Shown here piece by piece: positions 10,046 to 36,555 of a DNA stretch of 63,073 nucleotides; positions within the stretch are counted from its first letter, which is position 1; the number at the start of each line of letters is the position of its first letter. This DNA comes from a virus (taxonomy: Duplodnaviria; Caudoviricetes): IMG/VR virus record IMGVR_UViG_3300043449_000393, positions 1 through 63,073 of that record. The stretch is one strand, 5' to 3'. A program made the translations under genes and the position numbers. The notes beneath the pieces were generated by a model. The model saw only the letters and a list, made by a program, of their open reading frames with translations, ran no database searches and was not told the DNA's origin.

Positions 10046-10572
10046 TTAATCTCCTTGACCTCTGCATCTACTGGACTCACGTCCACCAGTGTAACGGGAG
10101 TCAGGGTCTGCTGGTTGCTTAAAGATATGGACTGGCCACCGCCCAAGTCGATGCTGATACTGAACCCCGGCCCAGTGTCCTTGATCTTTTCCTCCTTGGG
10201 CTCCAGACCTGCGGCCTTGATAAGCGTCTTGAGGACTTCATGCTTCTGGTTCAGGCTTGCATCCGTGCCCGACGCCTGTACGTACACCTGATCAAGCAAC
10301 TCACCGGCCATCCACGCCGCCTTAGCTTTGAACGTGACGCCGTTTTTCTCGAACTCAGACCGCTTGACCTGAACTTGCAGCTGGAACCAAGGCTGGGCCT
10401 CCAGCTCCTTGAACTTCTCCACGCTCATGCCGTGACGGGCGGCCACAACGAGCTCATCTTCCATGCCGAGGGCTATGGACGACACCATCTCATCGCTGAT
10501 CTGCGGAAACGAGACGGTCGAATGCTTGTAGTCCAACGGTACGTCATCCAAGGAGTAATCATCCAGCGACAT
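10042..10572 (-). CDS. terS: Probable terminase small subunit
   Basis: Immediately upstream of terL with overlapping stop/start; helical; GFSISIDLG C-terminal strand; GGAGG SD. Confidence 0.65.
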   Translation of the reverse strand: MSLDDYSLDDVPLDYKHSTVSFPQISDEMVSSIALGMEDELVVAARHGMSVEKFKELEAQPWFQLQVQVKRSEFEKNGVTFKAKAAWMAGELLDQVYVQASGTDASLNQKHEVLKTLIKAAGLEPKEEKIKDTGPGFSISIDLGGGQSISLSNQQTLTPVTLVDVSPVDAEVKEIK

Positions 10573-10732
10573 TTGCTGCCTCCGCCAAGCGTTTTTCGTG
10601 AGCTTCCACCGCCTGCAGGTACTTTTCGAGGGCGATTCTGACCACATCGGCAGCCGGAACACGCTTTTTTGCGGCCAATTTCTTGGTTTTTTCCAGCAGT
10701 TCATCGTCCAAAAAGAGGTTCCAGCGCTTCAT
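10559..10732 (-). CDS. Ribbon-helix-helix (CopG/Arc-like) DNA-binding protein, 57 aa, absent from the ORF track
   Basis: MKRWNLFLDDELLEKTKKLAAKKRVPAADVVRIALEKYL...; AAGGA SD; alternating beta strand then two helices. Confidence 0.85.
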   Translation of the reverse strand: MKRWNLFLDDELLEKTKKLAAKKRVPAADVVRIALEKYLQAVEAHEKRLAEAANVAG

Positions 10733-10759
10733 TTTTTGTCCTTTTTCGGGAGTTTTGAG

Positions 10760-10779
10760 GTGTGTATACGCACATTCTA
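10760..10779 (-). promoter_or_regulatory. -10 box followed by a near-palindromic operator-like site
   Basis: TAGAAT (10779-10774) then GTGCGTATACACAC, upstream of the RHH/terminase operon. Confidence 0.5.
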
Positions 10780-10908
10780 GGGGTTTTTTTAATTTTTTGG
10801 GGCGATTTTACGGGGTGGCGGGGGTAATTTTAGTACTTTTGTTACTAAATAACGTGTGTATGTCGTTAATTTTGGGCATGCTGTGAACGCGGGTCGTAGG
10901 CGGTGGCC

Positions 10909-10942
10909 GGGGCGGGGTGGGGTGTGGGGGGCCTGCCGGGGG
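10909..10942 (+). other. G-run cluster (G-quadruplex motif) at the late/early divergence
   Basis: GGGG-C-GGGG-T-GGGG-TGT-GGGGGG-CCTGCC-GGGGG. Confidence 0.6.
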
Positions 10943-10984
10943 TGGTCGGCTATCAAGGATGCCTAAGTTGTAGGGGCCCTGAGT

Positions 10985-11425
10985 TATCAAGGTTGCCTAC
11001 ATTGTGACGGTGATCGCACCGTCTCGCCCCGCCAAGTGTAGGTGACTTGTGCCGGTATCAATCGCATGGTGTAAACCATCGCGGTCATGCTGGGCAACAT
11101 GGGTCAAGTGCATGGGGACTCGATCATTAAAAATCCATATTGGAATCTCCCTTGGTGACGCGAGGGATGGGTGCGAAATAGTCTAAGACACCCTGACAGC
11201 ATCCGGCACTTCATGTGACGGCTAAGCCCGATACCCATTGCAAGCGTATCACCGGGCACTGCGATGCAGACAAACGGTAAGAGTCCGTTGAGCATAGGCC
11301 TGACAGAAAGGTGTCAGCAAGTAGCGCCGACTTAAACGGGCGATGAGGTATCCGACGCACCAAGACCAGCAAGCCGTAAGCCCCACGCAAGTGGGCTTCA
11401 GTGTGTAGTCAACCGATTACACATC
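10985..11425 (+). ncRNA. Candidate large structured RNA / early leader
   Basis: About ten local hairpins, GNRA loops, two long-range closing helices; no credible ORF. Confidence 0.5.
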
Positions 11426-11454
11426 CAAGTCCATTCAACCAACGAAAGAAATCT

Positions 11455-11901
11455 ATGTCCAATCAAGTTACAGTCCAAGACCTGCAAGTGTCCATCTACA
11501 ACAATGCCGCCAACGGTGGATTGGTCACAATGAGCGCTAAAAAATCAGGCTCATTCGCTCGTGCTATTGCTTTTGGTAATCGCGAAGCCAGAACCAACCT
11601 TGCCGCAGGCATGATGGTGACCCAACTGCAAAATGGTCAGTATCGCCCAATGGTGACTGACATCCTGACCTGCGGTCTGATTCCCAAAGCCAACTTGGAC
11701 TGGGTGTCTGCGTCCATTCCAGCGACTGGCCCAATCAACAAGGATATGCTCGTTGGCCTGTGCAAGCAAGTCAAGCAAGTGTATGACACCAAGCGCACCA
11801 AGTCCGGCGACCCTGTGGTGCTCAAAGGCGAAAAGGCCTTCGTGTTCAACTTCATCAAGGCCATTGTCGATGACGTCACCGAGACTACCGTTGACGCCTG
11901 A
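11455..11901 (+). CDS. First early-region hypothetical protein
   Basis: 148 aa ORF with phage-like codon usage. Confidence 0.75.
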   Translation: MSNQVTVQDLQVSIYNNAANGGLVTMSAKKSGSFARAIAFGNREARTNLAAGMMVTQLQNGQYRPMVTDILTCGLIPKANLDWVSASIPATGPINKDMLVGLCKQVKQVYDTKRTKSGDPVVLKGEKAFVFNFIKAIVDDVTETTVDA

Positions 11902-11918
11902 TGCTTTTGTTCCCTCTG

Positions 11919-12305
11919 CTCCCTGCGTACGCAGGGAGTGTAACATGGTTTTTGTCCATGTGAACATACACACGTACGAATAATCCAAGAAATTTAGCTT
12001 GGATAGTAGCCTTGGATTTTAGGAAACCCAATAACCATGCGGGTTTGCAGGGGTCTACTAGACAATAATCCAATAATCCAAGAATTTACATGACTCACGC
12101 AGGTGAGACGTGTTGCGGGTCATGGGGACTGCGAGCGCGAACAAAAAACAAAGTCCCAAAAACCCCTGACCCTTTTCAGAATTCTTGGATTATTGGATTA
12201 TTCGGCAAGGGTAAACCCTAACCCCCCTCGCCAAGCCAGTATTCATGCGGGTTTCAAGGCATACACACCTTGACTCCAACTATCCAAGCCCATCCCGTTT
12301 TGGAT
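11919..12305. repeat. Inverted/direct repeat cluster, candidate replication origin
   Basis: 20-bp palindrome 11919-11938; 23-bp IR 12064-12086/12180-12202; 11-bp IR 11997-12007/12279-12289; CATGCGGGTTT at 12036 and 12244. Confidence 0.7.
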
Positions 12306-36400: not shown

Positions 36401-36478
36401 CTGAACGCAGAGGCCAACGCCCCTGTACTGTCTCTAGTCACCAATCAATTTGACGGGGAAGCTGCTGAAGCAGTATGA
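33449..36478 (+). CDS. Primase-helicase (RepB/AEP-type primase, Cys cluster, DUF927-like P-loop domain)
   Basis: WVDVD, DSGNGIHAYW, ILRPVGS, CxxFxxxNPxxCxxC, Walker A GESGRGKT, Walker B LVDE. Confidence 0.9.
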   Translation: MDTLEFLRVILPEHGIHYLALFKEGYKFPAHKVYTDLETMAEAIEGMAGSKQLSVYHACASYQKAVIELDELDKNGNNKRKYRIPENWDKAKAFWVDVDCGQEKFDKGQGYLTKKEAVVAMAKFAKDVGIPRPMLVDSGNGIHAYWPLTHEIGPELWRKVATVLKSTLAHCKVIADPTRTADFSSILRPVGSTNRKNGDAKTVKVLATCEAIDPKEFATPLFAYAKENDVKLIREAPKKQYNNDLNSDLTAHLPQYPEIPADANVMADKCQQAATMRDTMGDVEYEVWRRVIGLLTFCESGRETAQAWTSNREESGHTSLDWDVKYDTWNAGPSTCESFQSCNPDGCNGCQFKGKITTPLQLARVIPEPEETVEETVNEESVTEEVSIPALPRGYQWDSGLLSRLLPDKEGVLQAFPFCENLFYPMTRIRGEDGTFRYGIRLHLPDKRIRDFEISGESVASPTDLLRAMARYELTKSNHKNAGEHMAAYLLDQLQSLKRSITETNTLTSFGYKDDNKAFLLGETLYEADGSERKVLVGGNAKERMATFKNGRGSLEGYAKALNFMYNRPGAVHWQYTICSGWGSLLAHHCEDLYKGLILALQGGESGRGKTTVCHAALAAFGNPEKLTLNSKDGFTTNALWATLGVFNNVPILVDELTGMDSAVFSDVAYGVSNGQDKVRLTSKNGGVVFAKSSEWRLNVYITGNRDFYGLLAANQANSQAEAVRLIQLNVDRYEGLMLVDRANYPKTPEGKKAWEAASGLVAAEHIKKMTANSGHAGAALIQYILANHDEVHKDIHTMLGKFTEVLSNPKFRFYRAHSACTIVIAKIARKLGIMEFDIKEMYKFTVNLLRELSESVAENNTVTSEDAFQRMVSILSSRIIVTTECRDRRDGRGPETPRNRINGPIAGRYILGSQSSKEFAGRLILSQKEVRDWCMANRMDFHSMMKSLQDAKALVAQGDKFVITRGTDCPSMQTRCIIVDMHKLNAEANAPVLSLVTNQFDGEAAEAV

Positions 36479-36479
36479 T
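36450..36479 (+). promoter_or_regulatory. sigma70 promoter at the 3' end of the primase gene
   Basis: TTGACG-N18-TATGAT. Confidence 0.6.
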
Positions 36480-36484
36480 CCACG

Positions 36485-36555
36485 GGCCGGTTGTCATGGC
36501 CGGTTCCTTTGTGGTTGATGAACTCGCCCCCGGCTTAAACACCGGGGGCTTTTTT
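36485..36555 (+). ncRNA. Candidate ~70-nt sRNA with an anti-Shine-Dalgarno seed
   Basis: Promoter, 5' hairpin, UUCCUUUGUGGUUGAU seed, intrinsic terminator. Confidence 0.5.
36526..36555 (+). terminator. Rho-independent terminator ending the plus-strand block
   Basis: GCCCCCGG-CTTAAACA-CCGGGGGC-TTTTTT. Confidence 0.88.

What the first reader, a model, noticed from the sequence alone, without database searches (positions are those of the whole stretch)
10985..11425. ~440-nt densely structured non-coding region at the head of the early operon
Seen hairpins: AGGTTGCCTACA/TGTAGGTGACTT enclosing GACGGTG-ATCG-CACCGTC; ATGGT-GTAA-ACCAT; CCCTTG/CGAGGG; GGGTG/CACCC; GCCCG/CGGGC with GATAC/GTATC; AACGG/CCGTT; CTGACA/TGTCAG; CCCAC-GCAA-GTGGG; TGTGTAGTC/GATTACACA. 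Two long-range helices close multibranch domains: GTGCCGG 11049 with CCGGCAC 11203, and ACGGCT 11218 with AGCCGT 11372. GNRA loops and G-U pairs favour the plus strand. I cannot match it to a known class. Inference: a novel large phage ncRNA or antitermination leader.
Basis: partly seen in the sequence, partly recalled or inferred. Interest (0 to 1): 0.7.

Follow-up and report, generated by a model that had tools for sequence, protein, structure and literature searches.

The report
Structured phage leader RNA with boxA-like site
The untranslated start of this freshwater phage's first operon is a roughly 450-base RNA folded into about fifteen evolutionarily maintained hairpins and carries a short motif resembling the signal that bacteria use to keep ribosomal RNA transcription from stopping early.

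Summary
The region is real, non-coding and structured on the + strand. Fold energy is -159.6 kcal/mol, z -2.71, against z -0.42 for the other strand. Over 11295-11432, 92.5% of cells pair and 25 of 29 pairs changed on both sides. Over 11124-11202 it is 92.5% and 11 of 11. Over 11198-11310 it is 91.5% and 13 of 18.

Both long-range helices and the outermost helix are not supported.

No Rfam family matches, and no small ORF is conserved.

New here: the leader is a mosaic of hairpin modules with near-invariant loops. It follows a G-rich tract and two tandem 20-mers. Its best-conserved element, GATCATTAAAA(AT) at 11122-11134, resembles boxA, the NusB/NusE site of rrn and lambda antitermination. 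In some relatives the motif directly follows a 5' hairpin, as in B. subtilis rrn leaders.

In the window alone the boxA match is not above chance. Relatives match better.

Best reading: an rrn-like antitermination leader carrying novel structured modules. Its function is untested.

The parts
10900..10949 (+). G-rich tract (runs of 4-6 G; GGGGGGCCTG core) upstream of the leader
   Evidence: Read. The core is invariant in alignment A1. It served as the anchor in 43 unique leaders. A G-rich tract is also present in the distant relative L114. Its role is unknown and it is probably not part of the RNA.
10951..10970 (+). Promoter-like 20-mer, copy 1 (TATCAAGGATGCCTAAGTTG)
   Evidence: The 20-mer occurs only twice in the 63-kb window, against 0.00 expected. 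Relatives carry two tandem copies of their own class-specific version at the same place.
10985..11004 (+). Promoter-like 20-mer, copy 2 (TATCAAGGTTGCCTACATTG), directly before the 5' hairpin
11006..11023 (+). 5' hairpin GACGGUG-AUCG-CACCGUC with a conserved AUCG loop
   Evidence: 3 of 7 pairs changed on both sides among 5 sequences. In 25 of 43 unique leaders at least 6 uninterrupted pairs directly flank ATCG, and most include a G-U pair. Several others have a shifted-register version.
11033..11049 (+).
   Evidence: Pair table printed: 5 of 5 pairs in the window and L003, 4 of 5 in L002 and L004, 2 of 5 in L007. No formal count was run.
11063..11083 (+). Hairpin CGCAUGGU-GUAA-ACCAU(C)GCG with a GNRA loop
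   Evidence: 94.9% of cells paired, and 4 of 8 pairs changed on both sides among 5 sequences.
11122..11134 (+). boxA-like motif GATCATTAAAAAT, the best-conserved element of the leader
   Evidence: TTAA[AC]AA[TC] is present in 31 of 43 unique leaders, twice in 4 of them. The T, T, A and A core positions are invariant in 43 instances. The window matches 8 of the 10 specified positions of GYTCTTTAANA. It matches 12 of 17 positions of the E. coli rrnH boxA stretch; relatives reach 13-15 of 17. ATTAAAAA is unpaired in the MFE structure.
11149..11166 (+). Hairpin CCCUUG-GUGACG-CGAGGG with a conserved GUGRCG loop, about 14 nt after the boxA-like motif
   Evidence: Model R2, alignment A7: 6 of 6 pairs changed on both sides and 87.3% of cells paired. 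RNAalifold recovered it independently.
11169..11193 (+). Hairpin GGGUG/CACCC with a conserved 15-nt loop (CGAAAUAGUCUAAGA)
   Evidence: 5 of 5 pairs changed on both sides and 98.8% of cells paired. RNAalifold recovered it.
11203..11221 (+). Hairpin CCGGCAC-UUCAU-GUGACGG with a kept G.A mismatch.
   Evidence: Alignment A8, helix 1: 5 of 6 pairs changed on both sides and 91.1% of cells paired.
11226..11257 (+). Hairpin GCCCG-AUAC...GUAU-(CAC)-CGGGC with a 3' bulge
   Evidence: Alignment A8, helices 2-4: the inner helix has 5 of 5 pairs changed on both sides, and the outer pairs are kept.
11259..11269 (+). Small hairpin CUGC-GAU-GCAG
   Evidence: Seen by eye in the sequences printed. Relatives have different stems at this place. 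It did not align in register and was not counted.
11273..11289 (+). Hairpin AACGG-UAAGAGU-CCGUU with a conserved 7-nt loop
   Evidence: Alignment A8, helix 5: 96.9% of cells paired, and 2 of 4 pairs changed on both sides.
11300..11317 (+). Hairpin H1, CUGACA-GAAAGG-UGUCAG
   Evidence: Model R1, alignment A5, helix 1: 6 of 6 pairs changed on both sides and 87.6% of cells paired.
11325..11342 (+). Hairpin H2, CGCCG-ACUUAAA-C(G)GGCG, flanked by conserved AGUA and UGAGG
   Evidence: Alignment A5, helix 2: 5 of 5 pairs changed on both sides and 91.0% of cells paired.
11355..11377 (+). Hairpin H3, a variable stem carrying a 14-nt loop ACCAAGACCAGCAA
   Evidence: Alignment A5, helix 3: 4 of 4 pairs changed on both sides and 96.3% of cells paired. 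Twenty-five distinct rows carry this conserved 14-nt loop on many different stems.
11382..11395 (+). Hairpin H4, CCCAC-GCAA-GUGGG
   Evidence: Alignment A5, helix 4: 4 of 5 pairs changed on both sides and 88.3% of cells paired.
11402..11423 (+). Hairpin H5, UGUGUAGUC-AACC-GAUUACACA
   Evidence: Alignment A5, helix 5: 6 of 9 pairs changed on both sides and 98.1% of cells paired, with many G-U pairs.
11425..11457 (+). Conserved single-stranded tail (CCAAG..CAACC), ribosome-binding region and ATG of the first gene (148 aa, 11455-11901)
   Evidence: The gene is 70-86% identical in 15 close related loci, while L018 and L019 are only 38% and 44% identical. It matches no Pfam or PHROG family.

Best explanation
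The stretch from about 11005 to 11454 is the untranslated 5' leader RNA of the phage's + strand (early, replication-side) operon. Transcription is inferred to start at or just after the second of two tandem 20-mers. The RNA opens with a hairpin that has an AUCG loop and then folds into about fifteen mostly independent hairpins. Their stems drift by compensatory change while their loops stay nearly fixed. Whole hairpin modules are exchanged between related phages, regardless of which first gene follows.

Between two blocks of hairpins lies an unpaired motif, GAUCAUUAAAAAU. I read it as a boxA-type site that recruits host NusB/NusE (S10), and with them NusA/NusG, to the host RNA polymerase. On this reading the polymerase becomes resistant to Rho and to pausing while it crosses a long, ribosome-free, strongly folding leader and the operon behind it. 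Ribosomal RNA operons work the same way.

The hairpins with fixed loops are most likely docking sites for proteins or tertiary contacts, and they probably also stabilise the RNA.

Shown: the region is non-coding; the structure is on the + strand; the helices covary; the leader is modular; the motif is conserved and resembles boxA.
Inferred: the transcription start; use of the host polymerase; Nus binding; antitermination; what the loops bind.

The confidence given (0.45) is for the whole statement including the boxA mechanism. That this is a structured + strand leader RNA I hold at about 0.9.
For: Structure.
- z -2.71 on the + strand against -0.42 on the - strand.
- Model R1 found 45 matches (37 distinct rows): 92.5% of cells paired, 25 of 29 pairs changed on both sides, slid controls 30-53%.
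- Model R2 found 23 matches (17 distinct): 92.5% paired, 11 of 11 pairs changed on both sides, slid controls 28-52%. RNAalifold recovered both hairpins on its own.
- The MAFFT alignment A8, not fitted to a model, has 8 sequences: 91.5% paired and 13 of 18 pairs changed on both sides.
- 43 of the 45 R1 matches and all 23 R2 matches lie on the leader strand.

Not coding. The six small ORFs of the region give only partial, module-limited tblastn matches, several with stops.

boxA-like motif.
- The motif is in 31 of 43 unique leaders, with invariant core positions.
- Published consensus sequences are GYTCTTTAANA (PMC5725501, passages read), E. coli UGCUCUUUAACA and B. subtilis AUGAUCUUUGAAA. The B. 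subtilis motif lies immediately after a small 5'-terminal hairpin (PMC13753749, passages read).
- Relatives such as L005 and L010 have GATCTTTAAAAAT about 10 nt after the 5' hairpin.
- Against the E. coli rrnH 17-mer read from the genome, the window matches 12 of 17; 43 of 2000 shuffles reach that. Twenty of the 43 leaders match 13-15 of 17; 5 of 2000 shuffles reach 13 and none reaches 15.

Host polymerase.
- None of the 27 ORFs I scanned against PHROGs matched an RNA polymerase family.
- The 2,219-aa virion protein has no polymerase match among PDB sequences.
- The distant relative L114 has a TTGTCA-N16-TATACT sequence at the same position (read by eye).
Against: - In the window the motif has two mismatches to GYTCTTTAANA. 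Matches of that quality occur 61 times in the window against 64 expected, so the window alone gives no statistical support.
- One mismatch is at consensus position 5 (A for T), in the U-rich core. I could not check how much that position matters, because the paper's supplementary table is closed.
- 12 of 43 unique leaders lack the motif although they are equally long. These are mainly the class whose first gene begins MEKAQ.
- I compared the motif with boxA after noticing it, so the E. coli comparison is post hoc, and the relatives are not independent tests.
- No sigma-70-type promoter was found on the + strand in 10500-12100. The polymerase and the start site therefore remain inferred.
- Thermodynamic support in other leaders is modest. 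With 15 shuffles each, + strand z values were -0.12 (L025, on a segment my script cut short), -1.84, -2.69 and -1.73.
- Alignments A5 and A7 were fitted to the models, which biases pair counts towards the structure.
Confidence: 0.45

Rival explanations
1. The leader is mainly a vehicle for one or more stable trans-acting RNAs. These would be cut out at the AU-rich linker and would act on host or phage factors as decoys, sponges or anti-defence RNAs. The boxA-like site, if functional, would serve only to get this ribosome-free RNA made, as it does for rRNA.
For: - Loops stay nearly fixed on freely varying stems. For example, the same conserved 14-nt loop sits on many different stems in 25 distinct rows, and there is a 15-nt loop in M2.
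- Modules are exchanged independently of the downstream gene. L025 shares 11114-11446 at 86% identity but has a different first gene.
- The RNA sits at the very start of the early operon.
Against: There is no evidence of processing or of a separate RNA end. No terminator follows the structured part, and the leader runs straight into a ribosome-binding site. No target is known.
Confidence: 0.25
2. The structure controls translation or stability of the first gene's mRNA. It could be a protective 5' structure, an operator for a phage protein, or part of the target region of the phage small RNA at 36450-36555.
For: - A 5' hairpin sits at the inferred RNA start.
- The tail and ribosome-binding region are conserved.
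- The exposed stretch of the small RNA can pair with 11427-11455: -20.3 kcal/mol against -14.8 (sd 3.0) for shuffles, with 11 of 300 shuffles as good.
Against: The ribosome-binding site is not sequestered in any conserved helix. About 400 nt is far more than such control needs. The modules do not track the identity of the first gene.
Confidence: 0.12
3. The AU-rich motif is not boxA but a -10-like promoter element or an RNase E site, so the region holds two separate RNAs (11005-11121 and 11135-11454).
For: TAAAAT matches TATAAT in 5 of 6 positions. The motif sits between two structural blocks and is single-stranded in the MFE structure. The window-level boxA match is at chance.
Against: There is no conserved -35 element or TG extension, and the promoter scan finds nothing on the + strand. 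The conserved positions extend upstream (G.TC) in the boxA register.
Confidence: 0.08
4. The region is a DNA-level element, such as a replication origin or packaging site, next to the terminase genes, and the hairpins are cruciforms or protein sites.
For: It lies between the terminase operon and the replication genes, beside a G-rich tract and repeated 20-mers. Many metagenome contigs end near the G tract.
Against: The fold is strand-asymmetric. 72 of 879 paired cells are G-U, which would be C-A mismatches on the other strand. Stems vary freely while pairing is kept. All strong model matches lie on one strand.
Confidence: 0.05
5. A small protein is encoded in the region.
For: There are ORFs of 37-63 codons on both strands. 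The 63-codon ORF at 11104-11295 (- strand) is open in L025.
Against: Every ORF gives only partial matches that end at module borders, and several matches have stops. Overlapping frames all 'hit' because the DNA is conserved. Indels are not in multiples of three.
Confidence: 0.02

Closest known systems
rrn operon leader antitermination signal (boxB hairpin - boxA - boxC; NusA/B/E/G, SuhB, S4)
   Same: An unpaired boxA-like motif sits in a long ribosome-free, strongly folding transcript. In some relatives it lies directly after a small 5' hairpin, as described for B. subtilis rrn leaders (PMC13753749). The sequence resembles the E. coli rrnH stretch, flank AATTTAT included, at up to 15 of 17 positions. 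Some leaders hold two copies; rrn operons have leader and spacer copies (recalled).
   Different: This element lies in a phage, ahead of protein genes. The window's copy deviates at two consensus positions. No boxC-like G/U-rich stretch follows. Binding was not tested.
Lambda-type nut site (boxA + boxB, N protein)
   Same: A phage early leader carries a boxA-like motif followed by a hairpin with a conserved loop, upstream of the first early gene.
   Different: The hairpin loop is a hexaloop, GUGRCG, and not the GAAAA-type pentaloop (boxB features recalled). The first gene product has no arginine-rich N-terminus. The leader is about ten times longer than a nut site.
boxA sites outside rrn (suhB 5' UTR; CRISPR arrays)
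   Same: boxA is used on other transcripts to modulate Rho-dependent termination (PMC5725501; review PMC12360218). The CRISPR-array paper was seen only as a reference title and could not be opened.
   Different: Those sites are chromosomal, and in suhB the effect is repression. Here the motif precedes several hundred bases of conserved structure.
HK022 put RNAs (recalled from memory, not tested)
   Same: Both are cis-acting structured RNA in a phage early leader that makes the polymerase resistant to terminators.
   Different: put is about 70 nt with two stem-loops and needs no Nus factors. I had no model or sequence to compare against.
Large phage-associated structured RNAs such as GOLLD and ROOL (their presence in Rfam is recalled)
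   Same: Both are large, phage-borne, have many conserved unpaired nucleotides, and have no known function.
   Different: No Rfam family matches, even at E up to 10. This RNA is a leader made of exchangeable hairpins with no supported long-range closure.

Membership tests
boxA (NusB/NusE-binding antitermination element) | Sequence match to the consensus GYTCTTTAANA / UGCUCUUUAACA | tested here: inconclusive
   The window matches 8 of 10 specified positions. Matches of that quality occur 61 times in the window against 64 expected. Relatives reach 9 of 10 (my count on the motif instances printed). Against the rrnH 17-mer the window scores 12 of 17 (43 of 2000 shuffles as good) and relatives 13-15 of 17.
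boxA (NusB/NusE-binding antitermination element) | Lies unpaired in the nascent RNA, promoter-proximal, ahead of a long untranslated or termination-prone transcript | tested here: met
   It lies about 117 nt after the inferred RNA start, and about 10 nt after the 5' hairpin in L005-type leaders. ATTAAAAA is unpaired in the MFE structure. The leader is about 450 nt without an ORF. The start site itself is inferred.
boxA (NusB/NusE-binding antitermination element) | Binds NusB-NusE and confers resistance to Rho-dependent termination | not testable with these tools
   Needs binding assays and terminator read-through assays.
Lambda nut site | boxB hairpin with a GNRA-like pentaloop bound by an arginine-rich N protein encoded just downstream | tested here: not met
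   The loop is GUGRCG. The N-terminus of the first gene product (MSNQVTVQDLQV...) is not arginine-rich, and the protein matches no family. boxB and N features are recalled.
Any Rfam 15 family (riboswitches, ribozymes, RNase P, tmRNA, 6S, large ncRNAs) | Covariance-model match | tested here: not met
   There were 0 matches at gathering score in the window and 0 at E up to 10 in 10700-11500. The only match in 18 related loci was Atu_At1 in L018, outside the leader and on the other strand. ARAGORN found no tRNA or tmRNA.
Structured non-coding RNA (general) | Compensatory base changes that keep the helices, more than slid-partner and shuffle controls give | tested here: met
   In all three counts, 0 of 500 shuffles reach the observed paired percentage or covariation score, and slid controls give 28-53% paired against 91.5-92.5% observed.

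The most novel reading that the evidence does not exclude
These phages begin infection by making a large, modular, rRNA-style non-coding RNA. On this reading a 5' hairpin plus boxA borrows the host's ribosomal antitermination and RNA-chaperone machinery to transcribe and fold 400-650 nt of hairpin modules. The fixed loops of those modules would then capture host proteins or defence sensors in trans. That would make this a new class of phage 'rrn-mimic' effector RNA, diversifying by module exchange.
Probability: 0.15. Interest if true: 0.85.

Novelty: new variant of a known kind. Interest (0 to 1): 0.6.

Why it matters
Outside lambdoid phages, little is known about how phages that rely on the host polymerase protect long early transcripts. 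This is a widespread uncultured freshwater phage group: 297 terminase relatives in IMG/VR. Its members keep an unusually long early leader with about fifteen covarying hairpins and a boxA-like motif.

If the motif works as boxA, it would show phages outside the lambda family using the ribosomal RNA antitermination system. It would also give an experimentally simple handle: a short motif with two published inactivating positions.

The hairpin modules have invariant loops on free-running stems and are swapped between phages. They form a well-defined set of candidate protein-binding RNA elements with no family assignment. The alignments and two covariance models built here make them searchable.

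Tried and rejected
- Rfam scans found no family: the window at gathering score, the region at E up to 10, and 18 related loci.
- ARAGORN found no tRNA or tmRNA.
- blastn of 10700-11950 against GenBank phages found no match. The best TerL identity to any cultured phage is 38%, so no annotated relative could be consulted.
- No RNA holder was listed among public sequencing runs.
- RNAalifold on the raw MAFFT alignment A3 gave only 10 pairs because the stems were misaligned. I moved to covariance models for that reason.
- The first viral-contig pattern had too long a gap and returned two coding false positives. The corrected pattern returned 10 loci, of which L100, L101 and L105 are coding false positives and were dropped.
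- I looked by eye for loop-loop or loop-helix pseudoknots involving the 14-nt H3 loop, the 15-nt M2 loop, the UAAGAGU loop and the ACUUNAA loop. No partner covaries with any of them. This was inspection only, with no formal test.
- I asked whether the H3 loop is an (A-R-N)n Hfq-type site (motif recalled). It fits the commonest loop but not the variants listed, so I dropped the idea.
- I looked for a sigma-70 promoter on the + strand. None was found at 9 of 12 matches, and my inspection of the 20-mers found no conserved -10 or -35.
- I asked whether the RHH (Arc-like) repressor binds the 20-mers. Its identity to the window's copy does not track the 20-mer class. L003 is 41% identical with the same class, while L002 is 62.5% identical with a different class. 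This is only a weak argument.
- Host identification from MAG labels gave five hits with discordant labels (Phycisphaerales, Pseudomonadota, Burkholderiaceae, Sericytochromatia, Lamprobacter). These look like binned phage contigs, so I drew no conclusion about the host.
- Fold z-scores for other leaders: the first script timed out. The second finished 4 of 6 leaders and then stopped on a script error. One of the four (L025) was computed on a segment my start-finder cut short.
- Literature: one search for a described phage leader of this kind listed only general motif-discovery papers (titles and abstract starts seen). 'Not in print' rests on that single search and on Rfam.
- Supplementary tables of PMC5725501, which list critical boxA positions, are closed and may bear on how damaging the window's two mismatches are.
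Full report
WHAT THE WINDOW IS. The window is a complete IMG/VR virus record. Its two ends are diverged copies of each other at an offset of 59,283-59,284 bases, so the genome is about 59.3 kb. It is a tailed phage. PHROG matches include large terminase, portal/adaptor, major head, internal virion protein, tail fibres, DNA polymerase, helicase and primase. No cultured phage has a large terminase more than 38% identical. IMG/VR holds 297 terminase relatives.

The finding lies in a 720-base gap. On one side is a - strand Arc-like (RHH) gene at 10559-10732, followed by the terminase genes. On the other side is the first + strand gene, 11455-11901, encoding 148 aa with no family match. Behind it lie small ORFs and the replication genes.

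THE OBSERVATION. The + strand folds better than dinucleotide shuffles: -159.6 against -142.3 kcal/mol, z -2.71, with 2 of 100 shuffles as good. The - strand does not: z -0.42, with 35 of 100 as good. In four other leaders the + strand z values, from 15 shuffles each, were -0.12 (L025, on a segment my script cut short), -1.84, -2.69 and -1.73. The + strand MFE was lower than the - strand MFE in all four. Thermodynamics alone is therefore moderate evidence.

RELATIVES. I collected related loci through the 148-aa protein, the terminase and a DNA pattern. Anchoring on the G-rich tract gave 43 unique leaders.

All share one plan:
- a G-rich tract;
- two tandem copies of a class-specific 20-mer;
- a hairpin with an AUCG-type loop;
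- 400-650 non-coding bases;
- two terminal hairpins;
- a conserved tail and ribosome-binding site;
- a first gene that differs between phages (three main families, beginning MSNQ, MELAQ and MEKAQ).

Similarity to the window is patchy and module-wise. For example, L025 shares 11114-11446 at 86% identity. Yet L025 has a different first block, a different 20-mer class and a different first gene.

COVARIATION. I built a covariance model for 11295-11432 (five hairpins) from 12 sequences with a hand-set structure. It found 45 matches in 64 sources. Of these, 43 lie on the leader strand and the other two are weak (E 0.002-0.005). On the 37 distinct rows:
- 92.5% of cells pair;
- 25 of 29 pairs changed on both sides;
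- no shuffle out of 500 reaches the observed values;
- sliding the partner by 1-3 columns gives 30-53% pairing.

A second model, for 11124-11202 (motif plus two hairpins), found 23 matches (17 distinct). It gave 92.5% pairing, 11 of 11 pairs changed on both sides, and slid controls of 28-52%. RNAalifold recovered both hairpins without being given the structure. Both alignments were fitted to their models, which biases counts towards the structure.

A plain MAFFT alignment of 11198-11310 with 8 sequences still gives 91.5% pairing and 13 of 18 pairs changed on both sides. For the first block, only five sequences share the window's version. There the 5' hairpin has 3 of 7 pairs changed on both sides, and the GUAA hairpin has 4 of 8.

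G-U pairs make up 72 of 879 paired cells in A5 (my sum). This fixes the structure on the + strand RNA.

WHAT IS NOT SUPPORTED. The outer helix pairs the second 20-mer with 11037-11048. It holds only in the two sequences of the same 20-mer class (65% of cells). The helix 11049/11203 never varies informatively: 0 pairs changed on both sides. The helix 11218/11372 does no better than shuffles: 69% paired, with 500 of 500 shuffles as good. Both long-range helices use strands that belong to covarying local hairpins, at 11203-11221 and 11355-11377. The RNA is therefore better described as a chain of hairpins than as two closed multibranch domains. An alternative conformer using 11049/11203 cannot be excluded.

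NOT CODING, NOT A KNOWN FAMILY. The six ORFs of 37-63 codons in the region give only partial matches that end at module borders, and several matches have stops. Rfam gave nothing at gathering score or at E up to 10. It gave nothing in the leaders of 18 relatives. ARAGORN found nothing.

THE CONSERVED MOTIF. The best-conserved element in this mosaic is an AU-rich stretch, GATCATTAAAAAT in the window (11122-11134). TTAA[AC]AA[TC] occurs in 31 of 43 unique leaders, and twice in four of them. Over 43 instances the consensus is CG[AG]TC[AT]TTAAAAATT[TC]A, with several invariant positions.

It resembles boxA, the RNA site that recruits NusB/NusE. Published consensus sequences are:
- GYTCTTTAANA for gamma-proteobacteria (PMC5725501);
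- UGCUCUUUAACA for E. coli;
- AUGAUCUUUGAAA for B. subtilis, where it lies immediately after a small hairpin at the 5' end of the rrn transcript (PMC13753749).

I read the E. coli rrnH leader itself. Its 17-mer GCTCTTTAACAATTTAT matches the window at 12 of 17 positions, exactly at the motif. Mononucleotide shuffles of the window leader reach 12 or more in 43 of 2000 trials. Twenty of the 43 leaders match at 13-15 of 17. Shuffles reach 13 or more in 5 of 2000 trials and never reach 15. Leaders of the L005 and L010 type carry GATCTTTAAAAAT about ten bases after the 5' hairpin, which is the B. subtilis arrangement.

Against this reading:
- The window's copy has two mismatches to the 11-letter consensus. 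Such matches are as frequent in the window as chance predicts, 61 against 64.
- Twelve leaders, mostly of the MEKAQ class, lack the motif.
- The comparison was made after the motif had caught my eye.

WHICH POLYMERASE. None of the 27 ORFs I scanned against PHROGs matched an RNA polymerase family. The 2,219-aa virion protein matches only a UvrD C-terminal stretch among PDB sequences, weakly (E 0.023). A distant relative has a sigma-70-like TTGTCA-N16-TATACT sequence after its G tract (read by eye). Host polymerase is thus the likely enzyme, which is what a boxA reading needs. Even so, the 20-mers do not look like sigma-70 promoters, and no RNA data exist. No RNA holder was listed.

MECHANISM, WITH ODDS. 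I hold it as near certain (about 0.9) that this is a + strand structured leader RNA. I put about 0.45 on the specific reading. On that reading the 5' hairpin and the boxA-like motif assemble a Nus-factor complex, as on rrn operons. The complex would then carry the host polymerase through a long ribosome-free leader and into the early operon. The reviews read describe this for rrn, lambda and other transcripts.

The hairpins with fixed loops remain unexplained. Examples are the 14-nt loop of 11359-11372, kept at the same length on many different stems in 25 distinct rows, and the 15-nt and GUGRCG loops of 11149-11193. They look like binding sites, and they could make the RNA a trans-acting effector (rival, 0.25).

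COMPARISON WITH WHAT IS KNOWN. The closest system is the rrn leader signal, followed by lambda nut. Membership in boxA is inconclusive on sequence and untestable on function. The nut definition is not met: the hairpin loop is of another type and there is no N-like protein. I therefore file the finding as a new variant of a known kind. It is a phage early leader with an antitermination-type element, joined to a set of structured modules that have no family.

Noticed in passing
window 10900-10949; also L114: A G-rich tract with runs of 4-6 G and an invariant GGGGGGCCTG core precedes the early control region in all relatives, and a similar tract is present in a phage with only 47% terminase identity. 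Seven of the metagenome contigs end 200-540 bases before the first gene, four of them at about the distance of this tract, which suggests an assembly or sequencing break there. Its function is unknown.
   Followed up: partly
window 10951-10970 and 10985-11004; same place in L002-L107: Two tandem 20-mers, unique in the genome, come in at least eight class-specific versions across relatives (for example TATCAAGGTTGCC.., GTAGCGGCCTGACC.., GTAGCAAGCCCGCC.., TTGACACC..). Both copies in a genome are always of the same class. They look like promoters or sites for a co-evolving factor. The class does not track the identity of the RHH protein.
   Followed up: partly
L020, L022, L047, L050, L051, L055, L073 (leaders before the MEKAQ-type first gene): This leader class lacks the boxA-like motif. 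It has an H-type pseudoknot (GCGCC-AACAG-CCGGG-GGCGC-UAAUU-CCCGG) whose second stem covaries: UAGGG/CCCUA in L047 and CCGAG/CUCGG in L050. Seen by eye and not counted.
   Followed up: no
window 36490-36525 against 11427-11455: The exposed stretch of the small RNA after the primase gene (noted by another agent) can pair with the ribosome-binding region of the first gene behind this leader. The duplex is -20.3 kcal/mol against -14.8 (sd 3.0) for shuffles, and 11 of 300 shuffles are as good.
   Followed up: partly
L018:801-907 (- strand): The only Rfam match in 18 related loci is the Rhizobiales sRNA family Atu_At1 (79.9 bits, E 1.6e-11). It lies upstream of the leader region of a distant relative (38% identical first gene).
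   Followed up: no
window 11455-11901 and the first genes of L023, L020 and others: The first gene behind the leader is exchanged between relatives. There are three unrelated-looking families of 148-174 aa (beginning MSNQ.., MELAQFTPA.., MEKAQILKNIG..), and the window's own MSNQ family has no Pfam or PHROG match. The leader modules are shuffled independently of these genes.
   Followed up: partly
window 11917-11936: A perfect 9-bp hairpin (CTCCCTGCG-TA-CGCAGGGAG) lies 16 bases after the stop of the first gene, with a short T run about 12 bases further on. The terminator scan did not call it. It could be a weak terminator or a processing site behind gene 1.
   Followed up: no
L112 (MAG contig of 118,807 bases): One related contig binned in a Pseudomonadota MAG is almost exactly twice the phage genome length. 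That suggests a concatemer assembly and not a prophage. The five MAG labels disagree with one another.
   Followed up: no
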